This document shows, piece by piece, positions 32,572 to 51,614 of a stretch of 64,000 nt of DNA. Source of the DNA: Escherichia phage SME50. Made by a program: the position numbers and the translations under genes. Under the pieces are notes generated by a model. That model did not search any database, was not told the origin of the DNA, and saw nothing but the letters and a program-made list of their open reading frames with translations. Where the stretch lies: the sequence record MT887289.1; one strand, given 5' to 3'. How positions within the stretch are numbered: position 1 is the first letter of the stretch; each line of letters starts with the position of its first letter.

Positions 32572-32842
32572 AGAGAAGTGGGAGATTTTACCACTAGTCA
32601 GTGAGGGTGGTAATGGTTGTGAAATGTATATGATACGAGGTCATGTTCCAGAACCAATTGCACTTGAGATGGTAAACAATTTTACAGATGGCTCTTACAA
32701 AGATTTAGGAGAACCAACTGTCAAGCAACAATGGGTTAAACCTGTACCAGACAGCACAGGTAACTGTAGTGTACTTTATCACGTTGTAGACCCTGCAAAA
32801 TGCAAATCTGCAATGGCAGTAACAAACGTAACTTTTAATTGA
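32564..32842 (+). CDS. hypothetical protein
   Basis: 92 aa. Confidence 0.4.
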   Translation: MAKEKWEILPLVSEGGNGCEMYMIRGHVPEPIALEMVNNFTDGSYKDLGEPTVKQQWVKPVPDSTGNCSVLYHVVDPAKCKSAMAVTNVTFN

Positions 32843-33735
32843 GAGAGAAAACTATGAAAACATCTATCCGTGTTACAGTTCATTCACCAACTAAAGGGAC
32901 TCATGAAGAAGAGTTTAACATCATCCAATTCCCTTCTGGTGAGATTGGTGGACACTTTTCACCAGAGTTTGTTGACTTCACTGCTTATGCAGCATCATCT
33001 ATCAACAATGTGATTATGATTGTAAAAGGTTATGATAAAGATACATTGTTTGCTGTGGCACTTGCTAAAGAGGCGGTGGACAACTTAGTACCTCATAAGT
33101 TTGCTATGAAGACTGTCATCTTTTACTATTTGCCAAATGCACGTTACGACCGTCACATGTTTAAAGGTGATGCAGCAGCTTTGAAAGTGTTTGCACAACA
33201 GGTTAATGCAATGGGTTTCGATGCAGTCTGTGCAGTTGACTCTCACAGTTATGTACCAGATAACCTGTTTAACTGCTTCCAGAGTATCCCCCAAAAGGAG
33301 ATTGCAGTCCACTATGCGAATGACCCACTGGTTGATTACTTAGTAGCCCCAGATGCAGGTGCTGCTAAGAAGATTGCAGAGACCGCTAAAGAGGTGGATA
33401 AACCATACATCACAATGTCTAAAGTGCGTAACCTTAAGACTGGTGAGATTACCGGTATGCGAATCCTCGATGATGTTGATTTGACAGATAAAACTGTCAT
33501 GATTCTGGACGACATCTGTGATGGAGGTCGTACCTTCATAGAGGCAGCTAAACATCTCCGTGAAGCAGGTGCAAAACGTGTGGAACTCTATGTAACACAT
33601 GGTATCTTCTCTAAAGATGTTGAAAACCTTCTTGACAACGGTATTGACCACATCTACACTACAAACTCTTTAGGGGAAGCTAAAGACCGTGGATTAACAC
33701 ATTATAGTCAAGTTACTGTAGCAAATTTGGATTAG
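32839..33735 (+). CDS. ribose-phosphate pyrophosphokinase (Prs)-fold enzyme; candidate ADP-ribose pyrophosphate synthetase
   Basis: 298 aa; PRPP-binding-type motif VMILDDICDGGRT; N-terminal half diverged from housekeeping Prs; adjacent to Nampt-like gene. Confidence 0.65.
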   Translation: MREKTMKTSIRVTVHSPTKGTHEEEFNIIQFPSGEIGGHFSPEFVDFTAYAASSINNVIMIVKGYDKDTLFAVALAKEAVDNLVPHKFAMKTVIFYYLPNARYDRHMFKGDAAALKVFAQQVNAMGFDAVCAVDSHSYVPDNLFNCFQSIPQKEIAVHYANDPLVDYLVAPDAGAAKKIAETAKEVDKPYITMSKVRNLKTGEITGMRILDDVDLTDKTVMILDDICDGGRTFIEAAKHLREAGAKRVELYVTHGIFSKDVENLLDNGIDHIYTTNSLGEAKDRGLTHYSQVTVANLD

Positions 33736-33743
33736 GTATTAAA

Positions 33744-34235
33744 ATGGATAAGGGTTACTTCGAAAAATACCTAAGATACGAACCAGAGACAGGTTTACTA
33801 ATTTGGAAAGTAACCCTTTGCAATACCGCTATTGCTGGCAATGTTGCTGGCACAAGGTCTAAGAAGGGTTATATCCAAGTTCAGATAAATAAGAAGAGGT
33901 ACTATGCACATAATATTGCATGGATTATGTCTGGAGGTGAGATACCAAGTGGATATGAGATAGACCACATAGACCTTGATAAAACTAATAATAAGTTGGA
34001 GAACTTAAGACTTAGCACAAAGTCACAAAATCAGAGGAATAGAGGCATACACAAGAATAATAAAACTGGTGTGAAGGGTGTAAGTTTTTGTAAACAAACA
34101 GGTCTTTACAAAGCAAGAGTCATGCTTTACCATAAAGAATACTTTTGTGGAAGATTTAAAACGGTAGAAGAAGCAAAAGAAGCTGTAATTAAAAAGCGAA
34201 TAGAACTTCATGGTGAGTTTGCAAGACATAACTAA
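33744..34235 (+). CDS. HNH homing endonuclease with AP2-like DNA-binding domain
   Basis: 163 aa; EIDHIDLDKTNNKLENLRLSTKSQN (HNH) plus GVKGVSF...YKARV... (AP2-like); free-standing between Prs-like and Nampt-like genes. Confidence 0.7.
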   Translation: MDKGYFEKYLRYEPETGLLIWKVTLCNTAIAGNVAGTRSKKGYIQVQINKKRYYAHNIAWIMSGGEIPSGYEIDHIDLDKTNNKLENLRLSTKSQNQRNRGIHKNNKTGVKGVSFCKQTGLYKARVMLYHKEYFCGRFKTVEEAKEAVIKKRIELHGEFARHN

Positions 34236-34249
34236 GAGAGAGATAAAAT

Positions 34250-36031
34250 ATGAGTAATTCACTTTACGCAGTACCAGCAGGTCTTAATGCAGATGCTTAC
34301 AAGGCATCACATATATATCAGTATCCAGATGCTACACAGTATCTTATGTTGAACCTGACACCACGTAGTGACAAATGGTTTAACAGCCCCTTAGCAATTG
34401 ACGGTGTAGTGGCTTTTGGTATTCAACGTTTTGTTAAAGATTACCTGATAGACCACTGGAACGCCACCTTCTTCGAACGTGACAAAAAAGAAGCAATTGA
34501 TGAAATCTTAGAAGTCATGAACGGCGTTCTGGGTAAAGATGCTATTGGTCGAGAACATTGGGAAGCACTCCACGACTTAGGTTATCTACCAGTTGAAGTC
34601 TACGCTGTAGAAGAAGGTACAGTTGTCCCTATGCGTGTGCCAATGATTGTCTTCCAGAACACTGTTTCAGGTTTCCATTGGGTAGCGGGGTATCTGGAAG
34701 ATGCTTTCTCTGCTGAGATTTGGAAGGCTTGTACCATTGCAACTATTGCATTGCACTACAAACGTATCTGTAAGAAGTGGTCTGACCTTACTTGTGACAA
34801 CGACTTGCATTTGCCTTATCAGTGCCATGATTTTGCTATGCGTGGTATGTCCGGCTTTACTGATGACGCATTTAACGCTGTAGGCCACTTAACCAGCTTT
34901 AAAGGGACTGATAGCTTCCCTGCTGTATATACAGCTAAACGCATCTACGGTCAGTCCTACCCAATCTCTGATATTGGTAGCTCTGTACCAGCCACTGAAC
35001 ACTCTGTAATGTGTGCAAACATTGCTTGGGAAGGTGGTAATGAGTTGATTGAAGAAGAAAGACGCTTTAAAGGTGAGTTACAAACCTTCCGTCGATTCTT
35101 AACAGAGACTTACCCAACTGGTATTGCAAGTGTTGTTTCAGATACTTATAATTTCTGGAGAACTGTATCAGTCATATTGCCAGAACTCCGTAAAGAGATT
35201 ATGGAACGTGATGGAAAACTGGTAATTCGTCCTGACTCTGGAGACCCTGTACATATTGTCACAGGCTATAAAGCAATCCACTTAGAGTGTGCTAAAAAGG
35301 CTTATTACGAACACCTAAGCAAGCTGGAAGCCAGCGACACAATGTTGAATGCTGTTCTGAACATGAAGCTTGAAAACATCAACTATGGTATTGCTGGGTG
35401 GCTACTGTCAGAAGGCTACGAAATGGTTGTTGACAGAGAAGACTTTGAAGTTGCTGATACAGTGCTGTTGAAAAATGCTTACATGGTTGGTTCTGCAAAC
35501 GTTGTAACACGTCCTGTAGCAGAGATTGATGGTGCTATTAAGACCCTGTATAACATCTTTGGAGGGACTATCAACTCTAAAGGTTTTAAGGTACTGGATG
35601 AGCACATTGGCCTTATTTATGGTGACTCTATCACGTTGGAACGTGCAAACGAAATCCTGAAACGTTTGTATGAAATGGGTTTTGCAAGCTCTAACGTAGT
35701 GTTTGGTGTAGGTTCTTATACTTACCAGTACATGACTCGTGACACCTTTGCATTTGCTGTCAAAGCAACTCTTGCAAGTATTGGTGGTAAAGAGATTATG
35801 CTTGCAAAAGACCCTAAAACAGATAGCGGTGTTAAGAAGTCTGCTTTTGGTGGTGTAGCACCCATGTGGGATGGTGATAAGCTGAAAGCTGTAGATGGCT
35901 ATGGATTCCAGAGCTTTGCAGATGTGCTTGAACATCCAGCTTGTGCTTTACGTTTAGTCTTTAGTGACTCTGAGCAGTTCGGTTACACAACTCTTGGTGA
36001 TATTCGAAATAATATTGACAAGCAACTTTAA
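34250..36031 (+). CDS. nicotinamide phosphoribosyltransferase (Nampt)-family enzyme; candidate nicotinamide ADPR transferase
   Basis: 593 aa; Nampt-like core including SVVSDTYNFW and GDSIT motifs. Confidence 0.7.
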   Translation: MSNSLYAVPAGLNADAYKASHIYQYPDATQYLMLNLTPRSDKWFNSPLAIDGVVAFGIQRFVKDYLIDHWNATFFERDKKEAIDEILEVMNGVLGKDAIGREHWEALHDLGYLPVEVYAVEEGTVVPMRVPMIVFQNTVSGFHWVAGYLEDAFSAEIWKACTIATIALHYKRICKKWSDLTCDNDLHLPYQCHDFAMRGMSGFTDDAFNAVGHLTSFKGTDSFPAVYTAKRIYGQSYPISDIGSSVPATEHSVMCANIAWEGGNELIEEERRFKGELQTFRRFLTETYPTGIASVVSDTYNFWRTVSVILPELRKEIMERDGKLVIRPDSGDPVHIVTGYKAIHLECAKKAYYEHLSKLEASDTMLNAVLNMKLENINYGIAGWLLSEGYEMVVDREDFEVADTVLLKNAYMVGSANVVTRPVAEIDGAIKTLYNIFGGTINSKGFKVLDEHIGLIYGDSITLERANEILKRLYEMGFASSNVVFGVGSYTYQYMTRDTFAFAVKATLASIGGKEIMLAKDPKTDSGVKKSAFGGVAPMWDGDKLKAVDGYGFQSFADVLEHPACALRLVFSDSEQFGYTTLGDIRNNIDKQL

Positions 36032-40262: not shown

Positions 40263-40811
40263 ATGAAGAAGTTGATTCTAGGTTTGTGCTTAATGTTTAC
40301 AGCACACTTATCTTATGCAGTTGACTGCCCAGAGCTATCAATTAGCCAAAAAGTAAACATGTTAAAAGCTTACCAGTATGGTGAGAATAATATGGGTAAA
40401 GGTTGGGGTATCACTCTAGCTGCTATAGCCTTACAAGAGTCAGAGTTAGGTCTGAAGGTAGAGAATAAAAAGACCCATGACTATGGTATCTTCCAGAATC
40501 ACTTGAAGACTGTTGTAAAGCGTAACAAAATCAGTCCTAATGTGGCTAAAAAGAAACTCTTAAAAGACTTTGACTATGCTGCAAAGGAAACACACAAAGA
40601 GCTTGAGTTTTGGACTAAGGTACATGGTCAACCAAAGTCAAAGAAGACTTTACAAAAAGTTTTAGCGTCATATAATGCTGGGTATTCGTACAAAATCCCT
40701 AAAGCTAAGAAATACTCTCAAGATGTTTACAACAATATGAAAGTCATCGCTCAATGTGAATTTGCAACAAACATTTCTAAGGTAAACCATGAAAAAATTA
40801 AGAAAGTCTGA
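40263..40811 (+). CDS. lytic transglycosylase (SLT domain) with signal peptide
   Basis: 182 aa; signal peptide MKKLILGLCLMFTAHLSYA; SLT-like motifs ALQESELG, YGIFQN, ASYNAGYS. Confidence 0.55.
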   Translation: MKKLILGLCLMFTAHLSYAVDCPELSISQKVNMLKAYQYGENNMGKGWGITLAAIALQESELGLKVENKKTHDYGIFQNHLKTVVKRNKISPNVAKKKLLKDFDYAAKETHKELEFWTKVHGQPKSKKTLQKVLASYNAGYSYKIPKAKKYSQDVYNNMKVIAQCEFATNISKVNHEKIKKV

Positions 40812-41484
40812 TGAAGTCCTGTGCCATGCTTACGACTTGCACCCTCATGAGTTAGGTCTTGATTCCTGTGTATGGACTCCAGAACAGTGCAGAGATTTTG
40901 AAGATACTGCAAGAGAAGTTGTATGTTCACTTGAAGAGTTCCACACATCAGAACCAATTGTGAGCGTTGTGGACAAAGAGACTGGACAATCTATAGGTGT
41001 AAGACGTGACAGTTTAGTCATAGTCAATAAAGACCTTGTAGAAAAAGGTAACCTAATCTTAGCAGATATTGATGGTGTTCTTACAAATTTTAATCACGAA
41101 GATTGCTCAACGGAATTGACTGATGGGTCATTCTCACAGTACACTAATCTTCTTGACTCTGTAAGAGCAAAACCAACGTATGTTTTCAGTATCATTGATG
41201 CAATTGCTAATCATGCTGCCATTGGACTCTTGACAGCAAGAGGTGAATCTCAGAGAATACCTACTGAGATGTTTTTAAGGCATAACATAGAGCATGATTA
41301 CATGCTTTTTATGCGTGGTTTTGGAACTAACTCTATAAGTGCAGAAAGTTTAAAAGTTAGGATGATTCAGTCTTGCATTCTTCCTTACTTTAATATAGTA
41401 TGCTTTATAGAAGATACAGAGAAGAATGTTCAGAAGGTAAACAGAATCCTTCCACACATTAAAACCATGTTAGTAAAACATTGA
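40789..41484 (+). CDS. HAD-superfamily phosphatase (possible deoxyribonucleotidase)
   Basis: 231 aa; HAD motif I LADIDGVLT and motif II-like GLLTARG. Confidence 0.45.
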   Translation: MKKLRKSDEVLCHAYDLHPHELGLDSCVWTPEQCRDFEDTAREVVCSLEEFHTSEPIVSVVDKETGQSIGVRRDSLVIVNKDLVEKGNLILADIDGVLTNFNHEDCSTELTDGSFSQYTNLLDSVRAKPTYVFSIIDAIANHAAIGLLTARGESQRIPTEMFLRHNIEHDYMLFMRGFGTNSISAESLKVRMIQSCILPYFNIVCFIEDTEKNVQKVNRILPHIKTMLVKH

Positions 41485-43415: not shown

Positions 43416-43623
43416 AAAGACACGTAAGATTGTAAGTTCAGCAGTATTCAAAGGGAGACATGAAGTCGTCCCGTTTGCAGGAGAAGATGTGTTAACTTAC
43501 AAGAAGGTGATGAAACGTGAGTTCAGTAACCATTTCCGTGACTTCTTCTCTGAACCATTAGAAGATTTTAAAAGTCGTTGTGGTAAAGGTATCATCACTC
43601 AAGAGGTAATTATTCATGGCTGA
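43390..43623 (+). CDS. hypothetical protein
   Basis: 77 aa. Confidence 0.35.
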   Translation: MKVILARDKKTRKIVSSAVFKGRHEVVPFAGEDVLTYKKVMKREFSNHFRDFFSEPLEDFKSRCGKGIITQEVIIHG

Positions 43624-43816
43624 CTTCTGCAAAGACTGCTCTATCGAAATGTTCGGACGTGATACAGGTGACTTAAAAGGTCTTATCACTGAAGACGACT
43701 TTAAAGCTGGCTATGCAATGCCAGTAATCTGTGAAGGTTGTGGATGTATCTGGGTAGACCATGAAGGGCAACGTGTAAAACCTTCAGAAGATAAAGAATC
43801 TTGGGAGAGATGCTAA
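43616..43816 (+). CDS. small Cys-rich protein
   Basis: 66 aa; CKDCS...CEGCGC. Confidence 0.35.
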   Translation: MADFCKDCSIEMFGRDTGDLKGLITEDDFKAGYAMPVICEGCGCIWVDHEGQRVKPSEDKESWERC

Positions 43817-44602
43817 ATGGGTATTGTAAAAATTATCAATGGGGATATCTTCTCAGCATTTGATAAAGGTAAGTTTGATATCATTGGTCACGGTTGCAAC
43901 TGTATGAACTTAATGGGTGCAGGTATCGCTGACAAGATTTCTAAACTTTACCCAAAAGCATATGAGACTGATACAGAAGTTTATCTGTATGCAGGAGGTA
44001 TAGGTCACAAACCCTGTGAAAATTTACTAGGCAACTTCTCTGTAGCACGTTTAAAACAAGGACGTATAGCTAACCTTTACACTCAGCTTAAGACTGGTAA
44101 AGATGCCCGATACAGTGCTTTAGAGTCATCTTTGAAACAGCTTAACAGATACTGTGAAGTCAATCAGTTGAAGAAAGTTGGGTTACCTATGATTGGTGCA
44201 GGTATCGGTGGACTAGACCCTCAAGCCGTCACAGTTATCATTAATCAGGTGATGAAGAGTGTAGATGTGTATCTGTATGTCTACGAAGGAGAGATGTACC
44301 ACAAGTTACGCTCAGGTTGGAAGAACTACTGTGAACCAGAATACTTTGCAGGTGTAGTAGTGTTCACTGATGATGCAGTTACCCTCTTCAGACGAAGAAA
44401 AGGTAAGATACATCAAAGTAACCCTCCGGTTGAAAAGATGTCTCTAAGTAACGCTCTAGTTACCCACCTGTCGAAGAGCAATCACAGAATTGCAGTAACA
44501 TTTGGCAGTGATGCAGATACATATATCTATGCAAGAACTGATGAGGATGTTGAGGAAATTTTCTCTTCACCGGAAGTAACCTTCTTAGACGCAAAGAACT
44601 AA
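43817..44602 (+). CDS. macro domain protein (ADP-ribose binding/hydrolase fold)
   Basis: 261 aa; INGDIF...DIIGHGCNCMNLMGAGIADKI and second Gly-rich loop LPMIGAGIGGLDP match macro-domain signature. Confidence 0.6.
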   Translation: MGIVKIINGDIFSAFDKGKFDIIGHGCNCMNLMGAGIADKISKLYPKAYETDTEVYLYAGGIGHKPCENLLGNFSVARLKQGRIANLYTQLKTGKDARYSALESSLKQLNRYCEVNQLKKVGLPMIGAGIGGLDPQAVTVIINQVMKSVDVYLYVYEGEMYHKLRSGWKNYCEPEYFAGVVVFTDDAVTLFRRRKGKIHQSNPPVEKMSLSNALVTHLSKSNHRIAVTFGSDADTYIYARTDEDVEEIFSSPEVTFLDAKN

Positions 44603-44675
44603 GAAACTCTGTAGAATATTCACAATAGGTTAAGCCTTTCTTATCTGGTAAATTTTTCAGGTAAGGAGGGCTTTT

Positions 44676-44860
44676 TCATTTCAGGATTGTGCAGGTAGAG
44701 TTCTGGACAGAAATCTGTAGAGAAAATTTTGAACTCCAAAGAGAAAATTCATTTTCAAACTGTGCAGGTAATCTCCAAAGAGCTTTTTCATTTTCAAAAC
44801 GTGCAGACCCCGCTCAGGTCGGGCAAGAAAAATCATTTTAGAATTGTGCAGGTAGGTGGG
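44676..44860. repeat. four direct repeats of a roughly 20-nt motif ending in ttgtgcagg
   Basis: ttttcatttcaggattgtgcaggta / cattttcaaactgtgcaggta / cattttcaaaacgtgcaga / cattttagaattgtgcaggta(ggtgggtgcaggtgg). Confidence 0.6.
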
Positions 44861-45030
44861 TGCAGGTGGGGATGTCGCCATTTCTCACAAGGCTACCACA
44901 TCTGAAAAGAAAAGTCAACAGAAAAATTTGTAGCGGATTGAAAAATAATTCTTGATTGTAGTTCTGTTTTGTGGTAGTCGCGTGCGCCCGTTTCATTACA
45001 GTTTTTGCAAAAATATTTTTAAAATTCCTA

Positions 45031-45059
45031 TTGACTCTTTGAATATGGTTATCTAATAT
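45031..45059 (+). promoter_or_regulatory. sigma70-like promoter heading the small-gene array
   Basis: -35 ttgact, 17-nt spacer, -10 taatat. Confidence 0.55.
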
Positions 45060-45109
45060 TTGCATCAGACGGGCAATCAAGCCCACTTCCTAAACTGGAG
45101 AATCAAAAA

Positions 45110-45316
45110 ATGCTTTACAGTCGTGAATTGATGGTTACAACTAACGTTAACACAAAGGTAAAACGTTTTTATATGCAAGTGTGCGGCGCATGGCGTAGAA
45201 TATCAGAAGCTGATTATTGCAACTATGTAGAAACGGCAATCAATTCTAATTGCTACCTTACGAAGAATACAAAGCGACATATAAAACAGACAGCGGTTTA
45301 CTATTACGATATATAA
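45110..45316 (+). CDS. array ORF A, hypothetical
   Basis: 68 aa; RBS ctggag. Confidence 0.45.
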   Translation: MLYSRELMVTTNVNTKVKRFYMQVCGAWRRISEADYCNYVETAINSNCYLTKNTKRHIKQTAVYYYDI

Positions 45317-45406
45317 AAAGTACTTTACAGGGGGCTTAAAAGCTGATATCTTAAGCCCCAGATAAAGAGCTTTACTTAATTAACCCTTAAACTAGGAGAT
45401 TCAAAA
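45317..45406 (+). promoter_or_regulatory. type-1 leader cassette (GC hairpin plus conserved RBS leader)
   Basis: agtactttacagggggcttaaaagctgatatcttaagccccagataaagagctttacttaattaacccttaaactaggagattcaaaa-ATG. Confidence 0.7.
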
Positions 45407-45787
45407 ATGGCTTATCGTGCACCTAAATTCATCAACAAAGACAACTTTCGCAACGCACTGGAGAAGTCACTTGATGAAAATTTTAAAGGTAACATTATCG
45501 TTGTTCACGCATTCAATTTTAAGTATGATGTAAACGGGAATAGAATCAACCATTACACAGCAACCATGTTAGATGGTACGCTATCAAGTGAAAAAGCTGT
45601 ACTGAATGCACTTGCAGGACGTGGTAAAAACCTGATAAGATGCGATAAGAGACGTTATCAGGGTGGCGCATATGGTTATGATGATGCTGTTTATCATCTT
45701 GAAAATATGGGCTATTCAGTGGAAAAAGCTGGAGTGTCTCAAATAATCGGCAGTGACGGCTATGTGACAATTTTCAAAATTAACTAA
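45407..45787 (+). CDS. array ORF B, hypothetical
   Basis: 126 aa. Confidence 0.5.
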   Translation: MAYRAPKFINKDNFRNALEKSLDENFKGNIIVVHAFNFKYDVNGNRINHYTATMLDGTLSSEKAVLNALAGRGKNLIRCDKRRYQGGAYGYDDAVYHLENMGYSVEKAGVSQIIGSDGYVTIFKIN

Positions 45788-45878
45788 TAAAGTACTTTAC
45801 AGGGGGCTTATAGTTCGATAAAGTAAGCCCCAGATAAAGAGCTTTACTTAATTAACCCTTAAACTAGGAGATTCAAAA
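45788..45878 (+). promoter_or_regulatory. type-1 leader cassette
   Basis: same unit; hairpin variant ggggcttatagttcgataaagtaagcccc. Confidence 0.7.
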
Positions 45879-46169
45879 ATGGCTATTATTAAAAACGTTG
45901 TAATTCCTGCAAAAACTCGTGATGACGCTCGCATCATGGCGAAAAAGTTAGGCGGGAAAGTGGTTGACAACGGAAAACAAACTGCTGTAAGGTGGAACGT
46001 GAAGGCGGATAAACAAATGAATTTAAAAAATTCACCAATAAACCTTTTTACATGTGTAAACACTATCGGGAAAACGAATGTATACACTAAAAAGGCATAT
46101 ATCAGACGCATCGCCATGACGTCACCTATTCGCACAATGAGAAGTCATGCAAAGCTGAAAATTAAGTAA
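45879..46169 (+). CDS. array ORF C, hypothetical basic protein
   Basis: 96 aa. Confidence 0.5.
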   Translation: MAIIKNVVIPAKTRDDARIMAKKLGGKVVDNGKQTAVRWNVKADKQMNLKNSPINLFTCVNTIGKTNVYTKKAYIRRIAMTSPIRTMRSHAKLKIK

Positions 46170-46259
46170 TAGAGTACTTTACAGGGGGCTTAAAAGCTGA
46201 TATCTTAAGCCCCAGATAAAGAGCTTTACCACTCAATCCTTAAACTAGGAGATTCAAAA
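46170..46259 (+). promoter_or_regulatory. type-1 leader cassette
   Basis: same unit. Confidence 0.7.
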
Positions 46260-46772
46260 ATGAAAACTGTAGACGCTACCTTTGAAGTTGTAAAAGAAAA
46301 ATTTTCCATCATTTACGAAGCTGTCAATTGCTACGAAGCAAGCCATAATCTTGATAATTGGAAGTTTACAGATGACCATCAAGGCGGTGTGACTATTAAA
46401 AACCCCAACTGTCAGCGTAATGGATTTAAATATGCAATTCCTTTACATTACAGCCTTAAACAGCTTTCAATTGACTATGCAAAACAAGGCCGGGAAAATC
46501 CATCGAAAGAGGCTTACATCAGCTTACAGAAAGAACTAGAAAGAGATTTAGAGGCTTCAGAATATAACATCGCCGCGAAAGTTGTAGATGCAAACGGTAG
46601 CACGGTTTTAGAGAGTTTTTATATTGGTTATGCTTTCGATTGGTGCTACAGTGACGGCGATGATTTAGATGACAGACTAAAAGAGGAAGTGAACAACGCA
46701 GACGCAGAATCTGAAGTATTAGAACGCTTGGAAGCATTAAAAGATTCAGTGATGAATATCTTTAAGAACTAA
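46260..46772 (+). CDS. array ORF D, hypothetical acidic protein
   Basis: 170 aa. Confidence 0.5.
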   Translation: MKTVDATFEVVKEKFSIIYEAVNCYEASHNLDNWKFTDDHQGGVTIKNPNCQRNGFKYAIPLHYSLKQLSIDYAKQGRENPSKEAYISLQKELERDLEASEYNIAAKVVDANGSTVLESFYIGYAFDWCYSDGDDLDDRLKEEVNNADAESEVLERLEALKDSVMNIFKN

Positions 46773-46863
46773 ATAGACCTCTTTACACGGGGCTAACAAG
46801 CGGATATGATAGCCCCAGATAAAGAGATTTATCAAATTAACCCTTAAACTAGGAGATTCAAAA
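46773..46863 (+). promoter_or_regulatory. type-1 leader cassette (diverged hairpin)
   Basis: hairpin ggggctaacaagcggatatgatagcccc with compensatory stem changes. Confidence 0.65.
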
Positions 46864-47160
46864 ATGAAACTATCAAATAAAGTCCGTGAAAATCTAAGCA
46901 AGTTGCTTAATAAAATTGATTTCATTGAAACATCAAGGAATAGCCATGATGTTATGGAATGGTTACACGGAAAAATCAAAGGCCGTCGTGTAGTGATTTG
47001 CTTATGGAATAGTTGCAGGGAATATAAAAAACCTGTATTACAAGTCAATATCTATGATGATACTTTTAAAAGCCCTGTAAAGTCTAAAAGCGATTTATTA
47101 GAATCTTATGAGATAACTGTAAATGGCAAGGTATCACGTAAAGAGGAAGCACCATGTTAA
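46864..47160 (+). CDS. array ORF E, hypothetical
   Basis: 98 aa. Confidence 0.5.
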   Translation: MKLSNKVRENLSKLLNKIDFIETSRNSHDVMEWLHGKIKGRRVVICLWNSCREYKKPVLQVNIYDDTFKSPVKSKSDLLESYEITVNGKVSRKEEAPC

Positions 47161-47486
47161 TGATGGGTATCACTGCAATCATTGCCATTATAGCACTTTA
47201 CAAGGCTTATAGCGCATATAATTTGGCAAGTAAGGCAATCACGCAGCAGGTCAATAATAACCTTGTAATGAGCTTTCTGGAGCGTTTAAGCGATGAACAA
47301 ATAAAACGGTTAGAAATGAGCTTCAGATTTCAATCAAAAACTTATCAAATCAGCGACATTTTCAAAGATGATTTTCAGCTCGTCGATGATTATAACTCTC
47401 TGATAAATGCTTTAAATATCAGTGATTTAAAAGATTATCATGCTGTAATAGTTCAAGAATTGAGCAAACGAAAACAAAATTCTTGA
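47154..47486 (+). CDS. array ORF F, membrane protein
   Basis: 110 aa; N-terminal TM MLMMGITAIIAIIALY. Confidence 0.45.
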   Translation: MLMMGITAIIAIIALYKAYSAYNLASKAITQQVNNNLVMSFLERLSDEQIKRLEMSFRFQSKTYQISDIFKDDFQLVDDYNSLINALNISDLKDYHAVIVQELSKRKQNS

Positions 47487-47575
47487 CACTGATTTTTAGA
47501 TAGATTAAATTACTCATCAACGGGGAGGGATTAACCTTCCCACTAAGTAAAGTCCTTAAACTAGGAGATTCGAAA
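47483..47575 (+). promoter_or_regulatory. type-2 leader cassette (promoter plus 5' hairpin plus RBS)
   Basis: -35 ttgaca, 17 nt, -10 taaatt; then hairpin ggggagggattaaccttccc; then actaagtaaagtccttaaactaggagattcgaaa-ATG. Confidence 0.7.
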
Positions 47576-47734
47576 ATGATTCAAATAGGTGATAAAGTTG
47601 TCTGGAACGATATAGACAATGATTTATGCACAAAAATTGTAATTGTCTTAGAGCTTGATTATATAATTGGTGTTGCAACTGTTGCAGATAATGATATAAT
47701 CTTTGATGTTTTAATCAGTGAGCTATCGAAATAA
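47576..47734 (+). CDS. array ORF G, small protein (below ORF-track cutoff)
   Basis: 52 aa; preceded by type-2 cassette. Confidence 0.4.
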   Translation: MIQIGDKVVWNDIDNDLCTKIVIVLELDYIIGVATVADNDIIFDVLISELSK

Positions 47735-47757
47735 GCCTTAAACTAGGAGATTCGAAA

Positions 47758-48030
47758 ATGTATACTACTAACAACGGTCGCACTTTGAACGTAACCCTGC
47801 GCCACTATGTGAACGGTGTAATGCACTTCGAGGATTTACAAGCCGAACAACATATCTTGGATTGGCAAGTAGCAGGACTCCAAAAAACTGCTACAGGATA
47901 CGGGAAAAAGATTCCAACTAGTTGGAAAGTATACTACGAAGGGCGTTTGCGCAGAATTTATCAAGATGTATACAGTAATAGCGCATCAAGTTACATCATA
48001 GTAAAAGGTAAAAAGCTGCATTTAGTATAA
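47758..48030 (+). CDS. array ORF H, hypothetical
   Basis: 90 aa; conserved RBS leader ccttaaactaggagattcgaaa. Confidence 0.5.
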   Translation: MYTTNNGRTLNVTLRHYVNGVMHFEDLQAEQHILDWQVAGLQKTATGYGKKIPTSWKVYYEGRLRRIYQDVYSNSASSYIIVKGKKLHLV

Positions 48031-48115
48031 AGTACTTTACAAGGGGCTTATAGTTCGATAAAGTAAGCCCCAGATAAAGAGCTTTAACACTCAATCCTAA
48101 ATTGGAGATTCTAAA
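48031..48115 (+). promoter_or_regulatory. type-1 leader cassette
   Basis: same unit. Confidence 0.7.
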
Positions 48116-48520
48116 ATGGCTATTAATAATCGTGAGTTATCAATCTTAAAAGCACGTTTGACCGTTAATCGGATTAATGTTATTACATCATCAGCACCGG
48201 ATGAGACATTGCACAACATTATCGGGAAGATTCAAAGTGTTATCTTAGACGTTGAAAACGTAAAAAACTCACTGGCTGACGTTGCAGCAGGTATCACGCT
48301 AGACGGTGCGCAATATGAAATGGCTGACATGTTAGGCAAATCTAAGGTAATGAATAAAGAGTTAGACTTGAAAATGTTTAGATTTGCTGTTAAAGTGTGG
48401 CTATCTGTCGAGTATGACGCAAATTTTGCAATCGCTGACTTTTTCGCAACATGGTTGCAACGTAATTTAACAAATCATGATTTCCGTGATGTCTGTGATG
48501 CAATTTATGCGGAACTCTAA
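48116..48520 (+). CDS. array ORF I, hypothetical
   Basis: 134 aa. Confidence 0.5.
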   Translation: MAINNRELSILKARLTVNRINVITSSAPDETLHNIIGKIQSVILDVENVKNSLADVAAGITLDGAQYEMADMLGKSKVMNKELDLKMFRFAVKVWLSVEYDANFAIADFFATWLQRNLTNHDFRDVCDAIYAEL

Positions 48521-48533
48521 AAAAAAAAAACTG

Positions 48534-48627
48534 TTGACACTGATTTTTAGATATATTAAATTACGCATTAACGGGGAGGGAATGAACTTCCCCACTAAGT
48601 AAAGTCCTTAAACTAGGAGATTCTAAA
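48534..48627 (+). promoter_or_regulatory. type-2 leader cassette
   Basis: ttgaca-17-taaatt promoter then hairpin ggggagggaatgaacttcccc and conserved RBS leader. Confidence 0.7.
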
Positions 48628-48831
48628 ATGGCTATTATTAACGGCTTAACCATTGAAACAACACACATCAAAGACATTAAAGTTGGTGATGTAGTCCTTT
48701 CCCACGGCGTAGAGAAAACTGTTACTGCAAAGGATATTAAAGAGGATTCTTTCATGGGTAGGACTCTCTTCGGTGATTCTTATTGCTTGGGTTATCTTGC
48801 AGTTTTAAAAGTTGTCAAAAATAACCGTTAA
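48628..48831 (+). CDS. array ORF J, hypothetical
   Basis: 67 aa. Confidence 0.45.
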   Translation: MAIINGLTIETTHIKDIKVGDVVLSHGVEKTVTAKDIKEDSFMGRTLFGDSYCLGYLAVLKVVKNNR

Positions 48832-48923
48832 AGTACTTTACAAGGGGCTTATAGTTCGATAAAGTAAGCCCCAGATAAAGAGCTTTACCACTCAATCAAG
48901 TCCTTAAACTAGGAGATTCAAAA
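48832..48923 (+). promoter_or_regulatory. type-1 leader cassette
   Basis: same unit. Confidence 0.7.
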
Positions 48924-49487
48924 ATGAAATGCTATCACGGCACTACTCTGAAAAACTTTGTAAACCTGCTGAATGGTGGCGACAAGCCTGAAGGAATCTG
49001 GAACTGCTCCTACATGGATGATTGTTTCTACGTTTACCCAATGAACAAGGTTATCAAAACGGAATGTCTGGAAGATGAGGAAGATTCTTATATCCGTGAA
49101 CGCTGCATTCAAAGCGCCTTAGAGTCTGGACTTATTACGGCAGCTTTCCAAATGGAAACGCAGGAAGTGATTGTTATCGAAATGGATATCCCAGAGGAAG
49201 AACTTGAGGACGATTATTCTTGTGACAACATGAGCGAAATTGCCAGCTTTACCGGATACTTTGATAAGAATTGGATTATCGGTATACACTCGACGAAATT
49301 TAGTGCGATGTATGCGCCTTTCTTTGTACCGGATACAACTAACCGTAATTTAGGATATATTGACGATGATTTGTTAAGTATGGCGAAAATTGTACAGAAT
49401 AGCGGTGATAGTTCCGTGTTTTGTGACCTACTTGATAAAATCACGGCAAACATCACAGAACGCAATTTAAAAGACTTTTTAGGTTAA
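48924..49487 (+). CDS. array ORF K, hypothetical acidic protein
   Basis: 187 aa. Confidence 0.5.
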   Translation: MKCYHGTTLKNFVNLLNGGDKPEGIWNCSYMDDCFYVYPMNKVIKTECLEDEEDSYIRERCIQSALESGLITAAFQMETQEVIVIEMDIPEEELEDDYSCDNMSEIASFTGYFDKNWIIGIHSTKFSAMYAPFFVPDTTNRNLGYIDDDLLSMAKIVQNSGDSSVFCDLLDKITANITERNLKDFLG

Positions 49488-49550
49488 TCAGTACAAAGAC
49501 ACCAACTTCCAACTTAAGGCCCGTACAGGGCCATTTAGAGGGCTTCAATC

Positions 49551-49784
49551 ATGCTTACAACCATTTACCTCATCCTTTCCATTTGTAATGGTCATTCATG
49601 CGATTTTAAAGGGCTTGAGGAGTTTACAGGGAGTAAAGAAAATGTTATTCATACCTGTCAGATAGCAAGGCAAGACTATCCCGCCAGTGATGATATACAA
49701 TGTTACTTTAAGACAGAAGATAATGACGGCGTTTATTTTGATAGCGTAGACGGTCAATATGAAATTATCATTGAAAAAGACTAG
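49551..49784 (+). CDS. array ORF L, small protein with N-terminal hydrophobic segment
   Basis: 77 aa; atypical leader, no cassette. Confidence 0.4.
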   Translation: MLTTIYLILSICNGHSCDFKGLEEFTGSKENVIHTCQIARQDYPASDDIQCYFKTEDNDGVYFDSVDGQYEIIIEKD

Positions 49785-49874
49785 ACAAGCCTGATAAAAG
49801 TCTGTAAATTGTCAATCAACGGGGAGGTAATAACCTCCCTACTAAACAAAATCCTTAAACTAGGAGATTCGAAA
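49785..49874 (+). promoter_or_regulatory. type-2 leader cassette (partial promoter)
   Basis: taaatt ... ggggaggtaataacctccct hairpin plus conserved RBS leader. Confidence 0.6.
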
Positions 49875-50216
49875 ATGGCTTATGTAACCGTAATTACCAA
49901 TAAAGAAGATTCATCTTGGTCAACTCAAGTAAGTGACAAGATGTCACCTATGCAGTGCCTAAAATACTTTGAGCAATGGAACAAAGGTGAGGAAACAAGC
50001 CCCTTTCAAGTAATGCAGATTATCCATACAGACAACGAAGGGAATAAAACTGTTTTGAATAGTGAGTACTATGCAACCAGATTCGAAACGAGAAGTAAAG
50101 CAATGAAACTCTTACGTGAATCCGGTTATTCTCATATTGCCGCGCTAATCTGGGATGACCTCCTAAAAAGTCAGCGTATCAGTTATGTAAAACCTGAAAA
50201 AATATTCATCAGTTAA
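49875..50216 (+). CDS. array ORF M, hypothetical
   Basis: 114 aa from ATG 49875; tracked ORF begins 49809. Confidence 0.5.
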   Translation: MAYVTVITNKEDSSWSTQVSDKMSPMQCLKYFEQWNKGEETSPFQVMQIIHTDNEGNKTVLNSEYYATRFETRSKAMKLLRESGYSHIAALIWDDLLKSQRISYVKPEKIFIS

Positions 50217-50436
50217 TCAACAACTTACAAAAAACTTTTAAAAAAGTGTTGACAATGCCCCTTGACATTGGTAACTTTGTTCGAGGGGGTTTATCTAAAA
50301 GGGATTAACTTAAAAGATTCTTTATAGATAAACTTAAAAAATTGCTTGCAATCAGATATCAAAACAAGTAAATTACTAATCAACGGGAGGGATAACCTCC
50401 CCACTAAGTAAAGTCCTTAAACTAGGAGATTCAAAA
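50217..50436 (+). promoter_or_regulatory. promoter region plus type-2 leader cassette
   Basis: gttgacaatgccccttgacattgg, acttaaaag motifs, then cgggagggataacctcccc hairpin and RBS leader. Confidence 0.6.
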
Positions 50437-50967
50437 ATGAACAAATTTCAAGCTATCAATTACATCCGCTCAAATAGTGTTATGTCAAAGCCTGTTAAAG
50501 ACACCTATGAATTTCGTTGCAATGGTGTACACTTTGCAACCATCACCAAATCAGAAAACGGGGCTTATTACGTTCATCGCCGTAATGTTGCAACCGTTGT
50601 AGTCTCTCACTTTATGCAAGCTGTCGCGGAACTTCTCCCGATGTTTTTAGGGCTTTACTTAGATGAGTGTAAGCACATTCATAACCATGTTAAAAGCCTT
50701 TTAAACGGTTATAAAATGGCTTATGAGCGTTCTATCAAGTCCTTAAACAAGTTTTACAACGCACCTGAAAACACCGTATCAATGGCATACGCTGTAAAGG
50801 GTGAGGCGGTGAGTCTCTTCGAAGTGGAAGAAATCGAGCTTTATGACCATCGCCCCAATGGTTACGCTAAAACTCTCGGTGAAGGTTTAACGTTCAATAT
50901 CAAGAACTTAGAAAAAACTTTAAAAGATATTGAAAAAGATATTGACGAGACAATCAAAAGTCTGTAA
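50437..50967 (+). CDS. array ORF N, hypothetical
   Basis: 176 aa. Confidence 0.5.
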   Translation: MNKFQAINYIRSNSVMSKPVKDTYEFRCNGVHFATITKSENGAYYVHRRNVATVVVSHFMQAVAELLPMFLGLYLDECKHIHNHVKSLLNGYKMAYERSIKSLNKFYNAPENTVSMAYAVKGEAVSLFEVEEIELYDHRPNGYAKTLGEGLTFNIKNLEKTLKDIEKDIDETIKSL

Positions 50968-51033
50968 ATTGTCAATCAACGGGGAGGGAATGACCTTCCC
51001 CACTAAGTAAAGTCCTAAACTGGAGTTATCAAG
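50968..51033 (+). promoter_or_regulatory. type-2 leader cassette
   Basis: taaattgtcaatcaacggggagggaatgaccttcccc... Confidence 0.6.
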
Positions 51034-51297
51034 ATGGAAAACGTCGAACTGACCACACTTTTACAAATTGCAACCGACAAAGAGGATGTAGCATTATTCC
51101 ACCGTATCGAAAGTGATTTGTTCAATGGTGAAATCATTAAAGAATCTTACGAAGTGGTCGGATTCAAAGATGGTAAATCATTTGGATTCTTTGACCTCGA
51201 CAAAGGCAACGCTATTACAGAGTATGATGTTTTATCTTGTGAGATTCTGACAAAATACAACGAAAAAAGACTTGCAACATACGCCAACATGCAGTAA
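51034..51297 (+). CDS. array ORF O, hypothetical acidic protein
   Basis: 87 aa. Confidence 0.5.
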   Translation: MENVELTTLLQIATDKEDVALFHRIESDLFNGEIIKESYEVVGFKDGKSFGFFDLDKGNAITEYDVLSCEILTKYNEKRLATYANMQ

Positions 51298-51365
51298 ATT
51301 ACTAATCAACGGGGAGGGAATGACCTTCCCCACTAAGTAAAGTCCTTAAACTAGGAGATTCTAAA
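51298..51365 (+). promoter_or_regulatory. type-2 leader cassette
   Basis: taaattactaatcaacggggagggaatgaccttcccc... Confidence 0.6.
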
Positions 51366-51614
51366 ATGGCAACTATCCGCGCAATTGTAAATTCTTATGG
51401 CTGCTACACTCTGGACGTTAAATTTGATATAGGTGGGACCGATGAGTGTTTCGAACTGGTGAAAACAGTCATTAAACAAGTTATCCCAGACTATAACCCT
51501 ACTGATGACTTCTGGAAAGATGCAGTAAAAGAGGCATTGAACGATGAATATCATTACCATTATTGGGGTGATTTGATTGTCTCCCTGTACTACAATAAAC
51601 AAGGTTGCAACTAA
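51366..51614 (+). CDS. array ORF P, hypothetical
   Basis: 82 aa. Confidence 0.5.
   Translation: MATIRAIVNSYGCYTLDVKFDIGGTDECFELVKTVIKQVIPDYNPTDDFWKDAVKEALNDEYHYHYWGDLIVSLYYNKQGCN

What the first reader, a model, noticed from the sequence alone, without database searches (positions are those of the whole stretch)
43817..44602. Phage-encoded macro domain protein at the junction of the core operon and the small-gene array
The N-terminal roughly 170 aa carry macro-domain hallmarks (GDIF...DIIGHGCNCMNLMGAGIADKI; second Gly-rich loop IGAGIGG). Macro domains bind or hydrolyse ADP-ribose conjugates. In a phage this suggests reversal of host ADP-ribosylation (for example DarT-type DNA ADP-ribosylation) or processing of ADPR-derived immune signals. 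It may cooperate with the NAD+ module 8 kb upstream, since both deal with NAD+/ADPR chemistry. The C-terminal roughly 90 aa is an uncharacterised extension.
Basis: partly seen in the sequence, partly recalled or inferred. Interest (0 to 1): 0.6.

Follow-up and report, generated by a model that had tools for sequence, protein, structure and literature searches.

The report
Phage macrodomain enzyme with orphan tail domain
This Felix O1-type phage gene really does encode an ADP-ribose-processing macrodomain enzyme, from a phage family recently shown to disarm two bacterial NAD+-based defences, fused to a fast-evolving extra domain of unknown fold.

Summary
ORF 43817-44602 (+) encodes 261 aa. Residues 1-157 are a confident macrodomain (Pfam 32.3 bits against a cut-off of 22; AF2 pLDDT 86; best folds TARG1, DarG, Poa1p).

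The window is a Felixounavirus. The gene is the 98%-identical ortholog of Bas63 gene 95 ('putative phosphatase').

It belongs to one phage family (PHROG 335) with two characterised members:
- T4 Tk.4 ('AdfM'), needed against DarTG2 (35% identity).
- Vibrio phage Gary Adpp, an ADPR-1''-phosphate phosphatase that feeds NARP1 against aRES (27% identity).

The whole family, including this protein, has Gln (Q90, motif NLYTQ) where DarG, TARG1 and PhiKZ AdfM have their catalytic Lys. It is therefore not DarG-like in mechanism.

The NAD+ module upstream is NARP1: Adps 32839-33735 and Namat 34250-36031, split by an HNH gene.

Residues 158-261 form a beta-rich domain with no Pfam, PDB or viral fold match. 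It is confined to Ounavirinae-like phages and evolves about twice as fast as the macrodomain.

Best reading: a dispensable anti-defence hydrolase that frees ADP-ribose from 1''-conjugates. DarT2-modified DNA is my leading candidate substrate and ADPR-1''-P a close second. Function is inferred from homologs, not shown.

Verdict: a new variant of a known kind, of moderate interest.

The parts
43817..44602 (+). CDS of the 261-aa two-domain macrodomain protein (ortholog of Bas63 gene 95, 'putative phosphatase')
   Evidence: ORF list and sequence. 98% identity to bas63_0095. 99.6% identity to Shy_0012. PHROG 335 E=2.7e-113.
43817..44287 (+). Macrodomain, residues 1-157. Family-invariant residues include H25, N28, C29, G34-A35-G36, N86-L87-Y88-T89-Q90, P124, G127-A128-G129, G132-L133-D134
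   Evidence: Pfam PF01661, 32.3 bits. AF2 plus Foldseek to TARG1, DarG and Poa1p. Invariant columns in 19 homologs. Curated alignment with DarG, TARG1, Poa1p, Adpp and Tk.4.
44288..44599 (+). C-terminal domain, residues 158-261: 6-7 beta-strands plus a C-terminal helix, an orphan fold
44632..44673 (+). Terminator-like hairpin plus T-run that closes the long co-directional operon directly after the gene
   Evidence: Pattern scan. This is a consensus match only.
32839..33735 (+). Adps (ADP-ribose pyrophosphokinase, PRPP-synthetase-like), first enzyme of NARP1. A putative downstream consumer of the ADPR released by the macrodomain
   Evidence: Pfam Pribosyltran and Pribosyl_synth. 97.7% identity to the pEP20 ortholog. 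Bas63 gene 79 was defined as Adps (with gene map).
34250..36031 (+). Namat (nicotinamide ADP-ribose transferase, Nampt-like), second enzyme of NARP1
   Evidence: Pfam NAPRTase and NAMPT_N. 97% identity to the pEP20 ortholog. Bas63 gene 80 was defined as Namat.

Best explanation
The gene encodes an accessory anti-defence enzyme of the phage Tk.4/Adpp macrodomain family (PHROG 335; Poa1p-like, without the catalytic lysine). It is expressed as the last gene of the long operon that also carries nucleotide metabolism, NARP1 and rIIA/rIIB.

Proposed mechanism:
1. The macrodomain binds the ADP-ribose moiety through its two glycine-rich loops.
2. It hydrolyses whatever is attached to the 1'' carbon of the distal ribose and releases free ADP-ribose.

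My leading call for the physiological substrate is phage DNA ADP-ribosylated on thymidine by DarT2-type toxins. That is the role assigned genetically to the closest characterised homolog, T4 Tk.4 ('AdfM').

The released ADP-ribose is the substrate of the phage's own NARP1 (Adps and Namat), so the two modules would form a salvage chain.

I infer that the fast-evolving C-terminal domain is a targeting or partner-binding module, for DNA, the replisome or a host toxin. I do not think it is catalytic.

What is shown: the fold, family membership, the active-site residue pattern, the synteny, and dispensability of the 98%-identical Bas63 ortholog.

What is inferred: catalysis, the substrate, the link to NARP1 and the role of the C-terminal domain.

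Probabilities: about 0.85 that it is an active ADP-ribose-1'' hydrolase used in anti-defence. About 0.75 that at least one of the two documented substrates (DarT2-modified DNA, ADPR-1''-P) is physiological. About 0.4 that DNA de-ADP-ribosylation is the main role.
For: - Macro fold and family.
- T4 Tk.4 is the closest characterised homolog: 35% identity, 80.9 bits, over the entire 155-aa protein. The motifs HGCNC..MGxGxA, NLYTQ and IGAGIG are shared.
- A tk.4 knockout sensitises T4 to DarTG2 in E. coli. T4 lacking adfA and adfN stays DarTG2-resistant, which had predicted a further factor.
- The PADLOC DarG model hits the macro part (47.6 bits, E=3.7e-13) more strongly than it hits Tk.4 itself (36 bits).
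- N28 aligns with DarG N22 and PhiKZ AdfM N23. Mutating a conserved active-site Asn lowers PhiKZ AdfM activity (alignment).
- Bas63 gene 95 scores +0.6 to +1.1 in PhageMaP, against -1 to -4 for terminase and portal. It is therefore dispensable on laboratory hosts, as expected for an anti-defence gene.
- None of the single-domain NARP1-associated phosphatases (146-170 aa) carries an extension. The appended, rapidly diverging domain therefore argues for a macromolecular partner.
- NARP1 sits in the same operon, and its substrate is free ADPR.
Against: - The catalytic Lys required by every biochemically proven thymidine-ADPr hydrolase (DarG K80, TARG1 K84, PhiKZ AdfM K78) is replaced by an invariant Gln90. 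TARG1 D125 aligns with Gly.
- The evidence for T4 Tk.4 is genetic only and comes from a preprint. No DNA de-ADP-ribosylation has been shown for any lysine-less member.
- Identity to Tk.4 is only 35%.
- In my NJ tree the Ounavirinae clade is sister to all single-domain phage macros rather than nested with Tk.4.
- Tk.4 is as close to the proven phosphatase Gary Adpp (35%, 77 bits) as it is to this protein. Similarity therefore cannot separate the two roles.
- DarTG was not in the PhageMaP defence panel.
- No paper links Felixounavirus and DarTG2.
Confidence: 0.4

Rival explanations
1. Adpp acting in trans. The macrodomain is an ADP-ribose-1''-phosphate phosphatase. RES-domain defence proteins (aRES) phosphorolyse NAD+ to nicotinamide plus ADPR-1''-P, which NARP1 cannot use. 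This enzyme would convert ADPR-1''-P to ADPR, so that Adps and Namat, made from the same transcript 8 kb upstream, can rebuild NAD+. That would be a dispersed version of the 'NARP1-AP' pathway. This is not mutually exclusive with the best explanation.
For: - It is in the same family as the biochemically proven Vibrio phage Gary Adpp (27% identity, 52.8 bits) and as other NARP1-neighbouring macros (PaoP5 type 73 bits, phiAbaA1 type 67 bits; sequences from Table S1).
- The active-site pattern matches the phosphatases: His-x-x-Asn-Cys, Gln (S in Poa1p) in the DarG-Lys column, and IG(A/C)G..GG. This is the pattern of Adpp and of yeast Poa1p, not of DarG.
- NARP1 is present in the same operon.
- The NARP1-rII-macro block is conserved in Kolesnikvirus. 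In a lineage whose macro is only 42% identical, a Namat-sized NAPRTase ORF lies upstream of rIIA.
- aRES occurs in E. coli, Klebsiella and Enterobacter.
- NARP1 alone fails against aRES, so an Adpp activity would be selected for.
Against: - The gene is 14 genes and about 8 kb from NARP1. It fails the published criterion of within two genes, and no Escherichia, Salmonella, Erwinia or Citrobacter phage is listed in Table S1.
- Most family members sit in phages or loci without NARP1. Only 5 of about 58 diverse loci had NARP1 genes within 8 kb, and T4 has none next to tk.4.
- Macrodomains occur in about 40% of myoviruses anyway, so co-occurrence is not enrichment.
- A metabolite phosphatase needs no extra 104-aa domain, and none of the listed Adpp proteins has one.
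- Identity to Gary Adpp is lower than identity to Tk.4.
Confidence: 0.33
2. An eraser for another ADP-ribose conjugate. Candidates are ADP-ribosylated RNA or protein made by a different host defence, ADP-ribosylation written by a phage-encoded transferase (self-regulation, as might apply to Alt/ModA/ModB in T4), or a 1''-linked signal such as His-ADPR of type II Thoeris.
For: - Macrodomains as a class hydrolyse many 1''- or 2''-linked conjugates.
- The C-terminal domain suggests a macromolecular partner.
- A 187-aa ORF 4.3 kb downstream (48924-49487) is the ortholog of Bas63 g107. The PhageMaP authors describe g107 as slightly resembling the NAD-binding domain of RNA 2'-phosphotransferase.
- His-ADPR is read by a macrodomain in ThsA.
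Against: - No homolog of this family has been shown to do any of this.
- The g107 ortholog has no Pfam or PDB sequence match. It shares only a YHGT motif with E. coli KptA, whose sequence I recalled from memory.
- No recognisable ADP-ribosyltransferase was found next to the gene.
Confidence: 0.13
3. RNA-repair housekeeping, as in yeast. The enzyme would clear ADPR-1''-P generated by a Tpt1/KptA-type 2'-phosphotransferase step during tRNA repair. It would work with the HAD-type polynucleotide kinase/phosphatase-like gene (40789-41484) conserved in the same block.
For: - Homology to Poa1p in the N-terminal motif and in fold.
- A PNK-like HAD gene is conserved a few genes upstream in all relatives examined.
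- Ounavirinae carry tRNA genes (tRNA entries in the PhageMaP table).
Against: - No RNA ligase, 2H phosphoesterase or bona fide Tpt1 was seen in the annotated Felixounavirus genomes examined.
- The PNK-like match is only 'weak' or 'faint', and Pfam found nothing for the window's copy.
- The gene is dispensable.
Confidence: 0.05
4. A non-catalytic ADP-ribose binder or decoy. Having lost the catalytic lysine, the protein would merely bind ADPR, ADP-ribosylated targets or a host enzyme through the C-terminal domain, acting as a sponge or inhibitor.
For: - Lys is replaced by Gln at the catalytic position of the ALC1-like class.
- The C-terminal domain evolves fast, as expected for a protein-protein interface in an arms race.
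Against: - Gary Adpp has the same Gln and is catalytically active.
- H25, N28, Q90 and D134 are invariant across 19 homologs down to 32% identity. That is more than binding alone would usually require.
Confidence: 0.05

Closest known systems
T4 Tk.4 ('AdfM' in the HIDEN-SEQ preprint, bioRxiv 10.1101/2025.11.20.689424)
   Same: Same family: 35% identity and 80.9 bits over the whole 155 aa. Same motifs (HGCNC..MGxGxA, NLYTQ, PxIGAGIG). Same Gln in place of the DarG Lys. An E. coli myovirus gene that is non-essential.
   Different: Tk.4 is a single domain, whereas this protein has an extra 104-aa C-terminal domain. The genomic context differs: tk-vs region in T4, end of the NARP1-rII operon here. 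No NARP1 genes lie in the 8-kb tk-vs region of T4 examined. The Tk.4 phenotype (DarTG2) has not been tested for this protein.
Adpp of Vibrio phage Gary and other NARP1-AP macrodomains (bioRxiv 10.64898/2026.01.28.702374)
   Same: Same family and the same active-site pattern, including Gln. A proven ADPR-1''-P to ADPR activity. Both phages carry NARP1.
   Different: Identity is only 27% (29% to the PaoP5 and phiAbaA1 types). Adpp genes lie between or within two genes of Adps and Namat, whereas this one is about 8 kb and 14 genes away. Adpp proteins are single-domain.
DarG antitoxin macrodomain and PhiKZ-type AdfM (Cell Rep 2026, PMC13309987)
   Same: Macro fold of the ALC1-like/TARG1 class (Foldseek E about 1e-8). 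Conserved Asn (N28 = N22/N23). The second loop ends in GGLD, as in DarG and PhiKZ AdfM.
   Different: A separate subfamily: 24-26% identity and 25-42 bits, against 82-177 bits among DarG and PhiKZ AdfM. The catalytic Lys is Gln here. There is no DarT-binding C-terminal domain. The NCBIfam DarG score is 47.7 against a cut-off of 250.
Yeast Poa1p (ADP-ribose-1''-phosphate phosphatase, PDB 6LFQ)
   Same: Shared N-terminal motif H-x-C-N-C....G-x-G-I-A....Y-P-K-A. Fold TM 0.74 on the target. No Lys at the catalytic column.
   Different: Sequence similarity is confined to the first 60 residues or so. Poa1p has Ser, not Gln, and a different second loop (INSGIFG). It acts in eukaryotic tRNA splicing.
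Human TARG1/OARD1
   Same: The best structural and profile match (profile E=3.8e-11; Foldseek E=5.6e-9).
   Different: The TARG1 catalytic pair K84/D125 aligns with Q90/G131 here.

Membership tests
Macro domain superfamily (Pfam PF01661) | Profile score above the curated gathering cut-off | tested here: met
   32.3 bits against 22, E=1e-7, covering 2-117 of 118 profile positions.
Macro domain superfamily (Pfam PF01661) | Three-layer alpha/beta/alpha macro fold | tested here: met
   AF2 pLDDT 85.9. Foldseek probability 1.00 and TM 0.7-0.83 on the target to TARG1, DarG, Poa1p, nsP3 and nsp3 macrodomains.
Macro domain superfamily (Pfam PF01661) | Two glycine-rich loops that hold the ADP-ribose diphosphate and distal ribose | tested here: met
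   M33-G-A-G-I-A38 and I126-G-A-G-I-G-G132 align with the corresponding loops of DarG, TARG1 and Poa1p and are invariant in homologs. Ligand binding itself was not tested.
Phage Tk.4/Adpp macrodomain family (PHROG 335) | Family profile match over the full length | tested here: met
   PHROG 335 E=2.7e-113, residues 1-260. BLASTP to T4 Tk.4 gives 81 bits. The PaoP5, phiAbaA1 and Gary NARP1 macros give 73, 67 and 53 bits.
Phage Tk.4/Adpp macrodomain family (PHROG 335) | Signature residues H-x-(C/A)-N-C, N-x-(Y/H)-x-Q (Gln in the DarG-Lys column) and (I/M)G(A/C)(G/D) | tested here: met
   H25, N28, C29, N86-LYT-Q90 and I126-GAG are present here and in Tk.4, Gary Adpp, RYC, PaoP5 and phiAbaA1.
AdfM function (anti-DarTG2) | Removes DarT2-made ADP-ribose from thymidine in ssDNA, or rescues a phage on a DarTG2 host | not testable with these tools
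   Only the T4 homolog has genetic data. DarTG is absent from the Bas63 PhageMaP panel.
Adpp / NARP1-AP | ADPR-1''-phosphate phosphatase activity | not testable with these tools
   Shown for Gary Adpp only.
Adpp / NARP1-AP | Gene lies within the NARP1 operon (published criterion: within two genes of Adps or Namat) | tested here: not met
   Namat ends at 36031 and the macro gene starts at 43817, with 14 annotated genes between them in Bas63 (genes 81-94). Both are on the same strand in one co-directional gene block.
Adpp / NARP1-AP | Phage encodes Adps and Namat | tested here: met
   ORFs 32839-33735 and 34250-36031, 97-98% identical to the Felixounavirus pEP20 proteins. Bas63's equivalent genes 79-80 were shown to be NARP1.
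DarG antitoxin (NCBIfam NF048014, PADLOC DarG) | Equivalog profile score above cut-off | tested here: not met
   47.7 bits against a cut-off of 250, and only profile positions 4-153 of 338 are matched. PADLOC gives 47.6 bits, against 132.9 for PhiKZ AdfM.
DarG antitoxin (NCBIfam NF048014, PADLOC DarG) | Catalytic lysine (K80 in T. aquaticus and M. tuberculosis DarG; K84 in TARG1; K78 in PhiKZ AdfM) | tested here: not met
   The column holds an invariant Gln90.
DarG antitoxin (NCBIfam NF048014, PADLOC DarG) | C-terminal DarT-binding domain and an adjacent darT gene | tested here: not met
TARG1/OARD1 | Catalytic dyad K84/D125 | tested here: not met
   The dyad aligns with Q90 and G131.
Poa1p | Full-length sequence homology and a tRNA-splicing context | tested here: inconclusive
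   The sequence match covers residues 8-56 only (E=0.003-0.02), although the fold matches (TM 0.74). No Tpt1 or 2H partner was identified.

The most novel reading that the evidence does not exclude
The Ounavirinae protein is a two-pronged counter-defence hub modelled on, but not descended from, DarG. The fast-evolving orphan C-terminal domain would bind and block a host NAD+-consuming effector (DarT2 or an aRES-type RES protein). The lysine-less macrodomain would use a Gln-based mechanism to clear that effector's product (ADPr-thymidine or ADPR-1''-P). The freed ADP-ribose would be handed to NARP1. One operon would then both neutralise NAD+-based immunity and recycle its debris. A corollary is that the T4 'AdfM' and the NARP1 'Adpp' are the same enzyme family with dual substrate range.
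Probability: 0.12. Interest if true: 0.7.

Novelty: new variant of a known kind. Interest (0 to 1): 0.42.

Why it matters
Macrodomains are among the commonest accessory genes of large phages. Their jobs only began to be assigned in 2025-2026.

This locus sits where two of those stories meet. Its closest characterised relative counters DarTG2. A slightly more distant relative is the phosphatase that lets NARP1 beat RES-type NAD+ phosphorylases. This phage carries NARP1 itself.

My comparison shows that T4 Tk.4, the NARP1-associated Adpp proteins and this protein are one lysine-less family, distinct from DarG and PhiKZ AdfM. That raises a concrete and testable question: does one enzyme family serve both defences, and how does it hydrolyse a thymidine-ADPr bond without the lysine that every proven enzyme uses?

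Bas63 carries a 98%-identical ortholog and knockout tools for Bas63 exist (Cas13a deletion; PhageMaP libraries), so the tests are immediately feasible.

The orphan, rapidly diverging C-terminal domain is a candidate new partner-binding module.

Tried and rejected
1. **C-terminal domain identity.**
   - Pfam on 15 members: nothing below E=0.02.
   - BFVD Foldseek: only the ortholog of phage SUSP2.
   - The AFDB50 library was not available.
   - HMM search of 1.84 billion representative proteins: only the same two-domain family and a truncated copy. Hits to large repeat proteins such as a PQQ-type beta-propeller are spurious.
   - Conclusion: an orphan domain.
2. **Phylogeny to choose between a Tk.4-like and an Adpp-like role.** The NJ tree of 66 macrodomains is star-like. 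The Ounavirinae clade is sister to all single-domain members and NARP1-adjacent members are scattered. It does not discriminate.
3. **Net charge or pI as a hint for DNA binding.** No pattern for the macro or the C-terminal domain across the groups. Rejected.
4. **A conserved upstream partner.** The abutting 66-aa CxxC...CxxC ORF is conserved only in Felixounavirus and Mooglevirus-like loci. More distant relatives have unrelated genes there. Rejected as an obligate partner.
5. **A phage-encoded Tpt1/KptA-like transferase (Bas63 g107 ortholog, 48924-49487).** No Pfam or PDB sequence match. It shares only a YHGT motif with E. coli KptA, whose sequence I recalled from memory. Left open.
6. **Rfam on the 500-nt gap downstream.** Nothing found.
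7. **Literature search for DarTG2 with Felixounavirus.** No paper. PhageMaP did not include DarTG or aRES.
8. **Kolesnikvirus C-terminal extension.** It has no detectable similarity to the Felixounavirus one, even with all HMMER filters off. It is either replaced or diverged beyond recognition.
Full report
**What is there.** The window is a Felixounavirus (subfamily Ounavirinae). The 2.5 kb around the finding is 93-97% identical to many E. coli and Salmonella Felix O1-like phages. ORF 43817-44602 (+) encodes 261 aa, has a good ribosome-binding site, and starts directly after the stop codon of a 66-aa ORF. It is 99.6% identical to Shy_0012 'putative phosphatase'. It is 98% identical to bas63_0095 of the BASEL phage Bas63/JohannRWettstein. 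Depositors call it 'phosphatase', 'macro domain-containing protein' or 'hypothetical protein'.

**The macrodomain is real.**
- Pfam Macro scores 32.3 bits against a cut-off of 22.
- PHROG 335 matches over the full length at E=2.7e-113.
- A 19-sequence alignment gave an AlphaFold2 model with pLDDT 85.9 and pTM 0.86.
- The best PDB neighbours of that model are TARG1, the DarG macrodomains of T. aquaticus and M. tuberculosis, alphavirus and coronavirus macrodomains, and yeast Poa1p, all at probability 1.00.
- The macrodomain spans residues 1-157.

**Which macrodomain family.** Searching the phage collection with the protein finds about 2,800 records. Full-length matches are confined to Ounavirinae. 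Everything else matches only residues 1-160 at 28-43% identity, including the tk.4 genes of T4-like phages. T4 Tk.4 is 35% identical over its whole length.

Two recent studies give functions to members of this family:
- A transposon screen found tk.4 to be the single T4 gene needed on DarTG2-expressing E. coli, and a clean knockout confirmed it. The authors named it AdfM.
- Osterman et al. showed that macrodomain genes embedded in NARP1 operons encode ADPR-1''-phosphate phosphatases (Adpp). These let NARP1 rebuild NAD+ after RES-domain (aRES) proteins have phosphorolysed it. Purified Adpp of Vibrio phage Gary converts ADPR-1''-P to ADPR.

I took the Gary, RYC, PaoP5 and phiAbaA1 sequences from their Table S1. 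I recovered the true Poa1p and DarG sequences from PDB alignments. I then built a curated alignment and a bit-score matrix.

| Pair | Bits |
|---|---|
| This protein vs T4 Tk.4 | 81 |
| This protein vs PaoP5 NARP1 macro | 73 |
| This protein vs phiAbaA1 NARP1 macro | 67 |
| This protein vs Gary Adpp | 52 |
| T4 Tk.4 vs phiAbaA1 / Gary / PaoP5 | 83 / 77 / 75 |
| DarG and PhiKZ AdfM among themselves | 82-177 |
| DarG / PhiKZ AdfM vs the phage family above | 17-45 |

This protein, T4 Tk.4 and the NARP1-associated macros therefore form one family. DarG and the PhiKZ-type AdfM (Cell Rep 2026) form another. The name 'AdfM' is currently applied to two non-orthologous macrodomain groups.

**Active site.** The Asn that matters in DarG (N22) and PhiKZ AdfM (N23) is conserved as N28. 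The catalytic Lys is not. It is K80 in DarG, K84 in TARG1 and K78 in PhiKZ AdfM. That column is an invariant Gln in this protein (Q90, motif NLYTQ), in T4 Tk.4 and in all NARP1-associated macros. It is Ser in Poa1p. TARG1 D125 aligns with Gly. The N-terminal motif HxCNC...GxGIA...YPKA is shared with Poa1p.

The protein fails the NCBIfam DarG equivalog (47.7 bits against 250). It hits the PADLOC DarG model only through the macro part. By residues it looks like the phosphatases. By overall similarity its nearest characterised relative is the anti-DarTG2 factor.

**The C-terminal domain.**
- Residues 158-261 fold, at pLDDT 80, into 6-7 strands followed by a helix.
- A profile search of 1.84 billion proteins finds the domain only in this two-domain family.
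- It diverges about twice as fast as the macrodomain: 81% against 55%, 53% against 20%, and 42% against 14-20%.
- In Erwinia Kolesnikvirus the equivalent 100 residues show no detectable similarity.
- Only three positions are (nearly) invariant, so it is unlikely to be catalytic.
- None of the single-domain family members, whether Tk.4 or Adpp, has it.
- I read it as a targeting or partner-binding module. This is inference only.

**Context.** The gene is the last of a long co-directional block:
- primase/helicase and ribonucleotide reductases;
- Adps (32839-33735), an inserted HNH endonuclease (33744-34235), and Namat (34250-36031);
- rIIA and rIIB;
- an SLT-like gene, a PNK-like HAD gene and the spanins;
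- several small ORFs and then the macro gene.

A terminator-like hairpin follows the gene. Next comes a 500-nt gap, and then small genes behind repeated promoter/hairpin/RBS cassettes.

The Adps and Namat pair is NARP1. Their Bas63 orthologs, genes 79-80, were the founding example. The NARP1-rII-macro block is conserved in Kolesnikvirus. In an unclassified lineage whose macro is only 42% identical, a Namat-sized NAPRTase ORF lies just upstream of rIIA.

Among about 58 diverse single-domain relatives from IMG/VR, only five have NARP1 genes within 8 kb. These are scattered over a star-like tree in which the Ounavirinae clade is sister to all the others. Phylogeny and adjacency therefore do not decide the role.

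**Is the gene needed?** In the PhageMaP data for Bas63, gene 95 scores +0.6 to +1.1 on laboratory E. coli and on the defence-system strains shown. Terminase and portal score -1 to -4. The gene is therefore dispensable, as expected for a conditional anti-defence gene. DarTG and aRES were not in that panel.

**Mechanism and likelihoods.**
- An active ADP-ribose-1'' hydrolase used against host defence: about 0.85. This rests on the invariant active-site residues, an active homolog with the same Gln, and dispensability.
- My leading call for the main substrate is DNA ADP-ribosylated by DarT2-type toxins: about 0.4. The reasons are the closest characterised homolog, the same host, and the extra domain that suggests a macromolecular target.
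- ADPR-1''-P dephosphorylation feeding NARP1 in trans is nearly as likely: about 0.33. It is biochemically the safer inference, because both proven lysine-less enzymes are phosphatases and NARP1 is co-transcribed.
- The two are not exclusive. At least one of them is physiological: about 0.75.
- In either case the product is free ADP-ribose, the substrate of Adps.
- Minor rivals are other ADP-ribose conjugates, RNA-repair housekeeping and a non-catalytic binder.

**Novelty.** The gene is annotated in hundreds of genomes, and the family now has two published functions, so the macrodomain itself is not new. Three things are not in the papers I read: the two-domain architecture with an orphan, fast-evolving C-terminal domain; the dispersed NARP1-plus-macro arrangement conserved across Ounavirinae; and the recognition that T4 'AdfM' and 'Adpp' are one lysine-less family separate from DarG and PhiKZ AdfM. 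I rate it a new variant of a known kind, of moderate interest.

Noticed in passing
window 33744-34235 (+): A 163-aa HNH_3/AP2 homing-endonuclease gene sits between the two NARP1 genes, Adps and Namat. Bas63 and pEP20 have the two genes adjacent with no insert. A distant relative has an HNH gene just after Namat instead (L095:884-1369).
   Followed up: partly
window 45299-51376 (+): Each small gene downstream is preceded by a conserved cassette. It consists of a TTTACA promoter-like box, a GC hairpin (GGGGGCTTA...TAAGCCCC or GGGGAGGG...CCTTCCCC), and then the nearly invariant leader CCTTAAACTAGGAGATTC(A/G/T)AAAATG. There are 11 copies of the leader.
   Followed up: partly
window 44603-45109: A roughly 500-nt gap without a convincing ORF holds 4-5 spaced copies of (C/A)TTTTTCATTT(T)CA-N5-6-TGTGCAGGT at about 40-45 nt intervals (44667-44870). 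There is no Rfam match. Bas63 annotates two tiny minus-strand ORFs here.
   Followed up: partly
window 43616-43816 (+): A 66-aa ORF with CxxC...CxxC (zinc-ribbon-like) abuts the macro start codon (TAA-ATG). It is conserved only in Felixounavirus and Mooglevirus-like loci. A distant relative (L005) has an unrelated 63-aa CxxC...CxxC ORF in the same position.
   Followed up: partly
window 48924-49487 (+): A 187-aa ORF beginning MKCYHGT is the ortholog of Bas63 g107. It is only 55% identical in a genome that is otherwise about 95% identical, so it is diversifying. The PhageMaP authors report slight structural resemblance of g107 to the NAD-binding domain of RNA 2'-phosphotransferase. I found no Pfam or PDB sequence match. 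It is a possible phage ADP-ribosyltransferase-like gene near the macrodomain.
   Followed up: partly
literature; L002:4923-5390 (T4 tk.4) and L003:12518-13006 (PhiKZ gp104): Two 2025-2026 studies independently named different proteins 'AdfM'. T4 Tk.4 is lysine-less and Poa1p/Adpp-like. PhiKZ gp104 is DarG-like with K78. They share only 21 bits in BLASTP, so they are not orthologs.
   Followed up: yes
L092:16868-19083 (Bas62, Justusliebigvirus MZ501084): In this unrelated E. coli phage a 244-aa 'putative macrodomain protein' lies directly next to a 'putative phosphoribosyltransferase' and a 'HAD-like superfamily protein'. This is another macro plus NAD-type gene cluster. I fetched it by accident.
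   Followed up: no
window 40263-41484 (+): An SLT-like 182-aa ORF and an overlapping 231-aa ORF are conserved between rIIB and the macro gene in all Ounavirinae-like loci examined. Depositors annotate the 231-aa ORF as polynucleotide kinase. Its relatives carry a weak HAD_PNKP hit.
   Followed up: no
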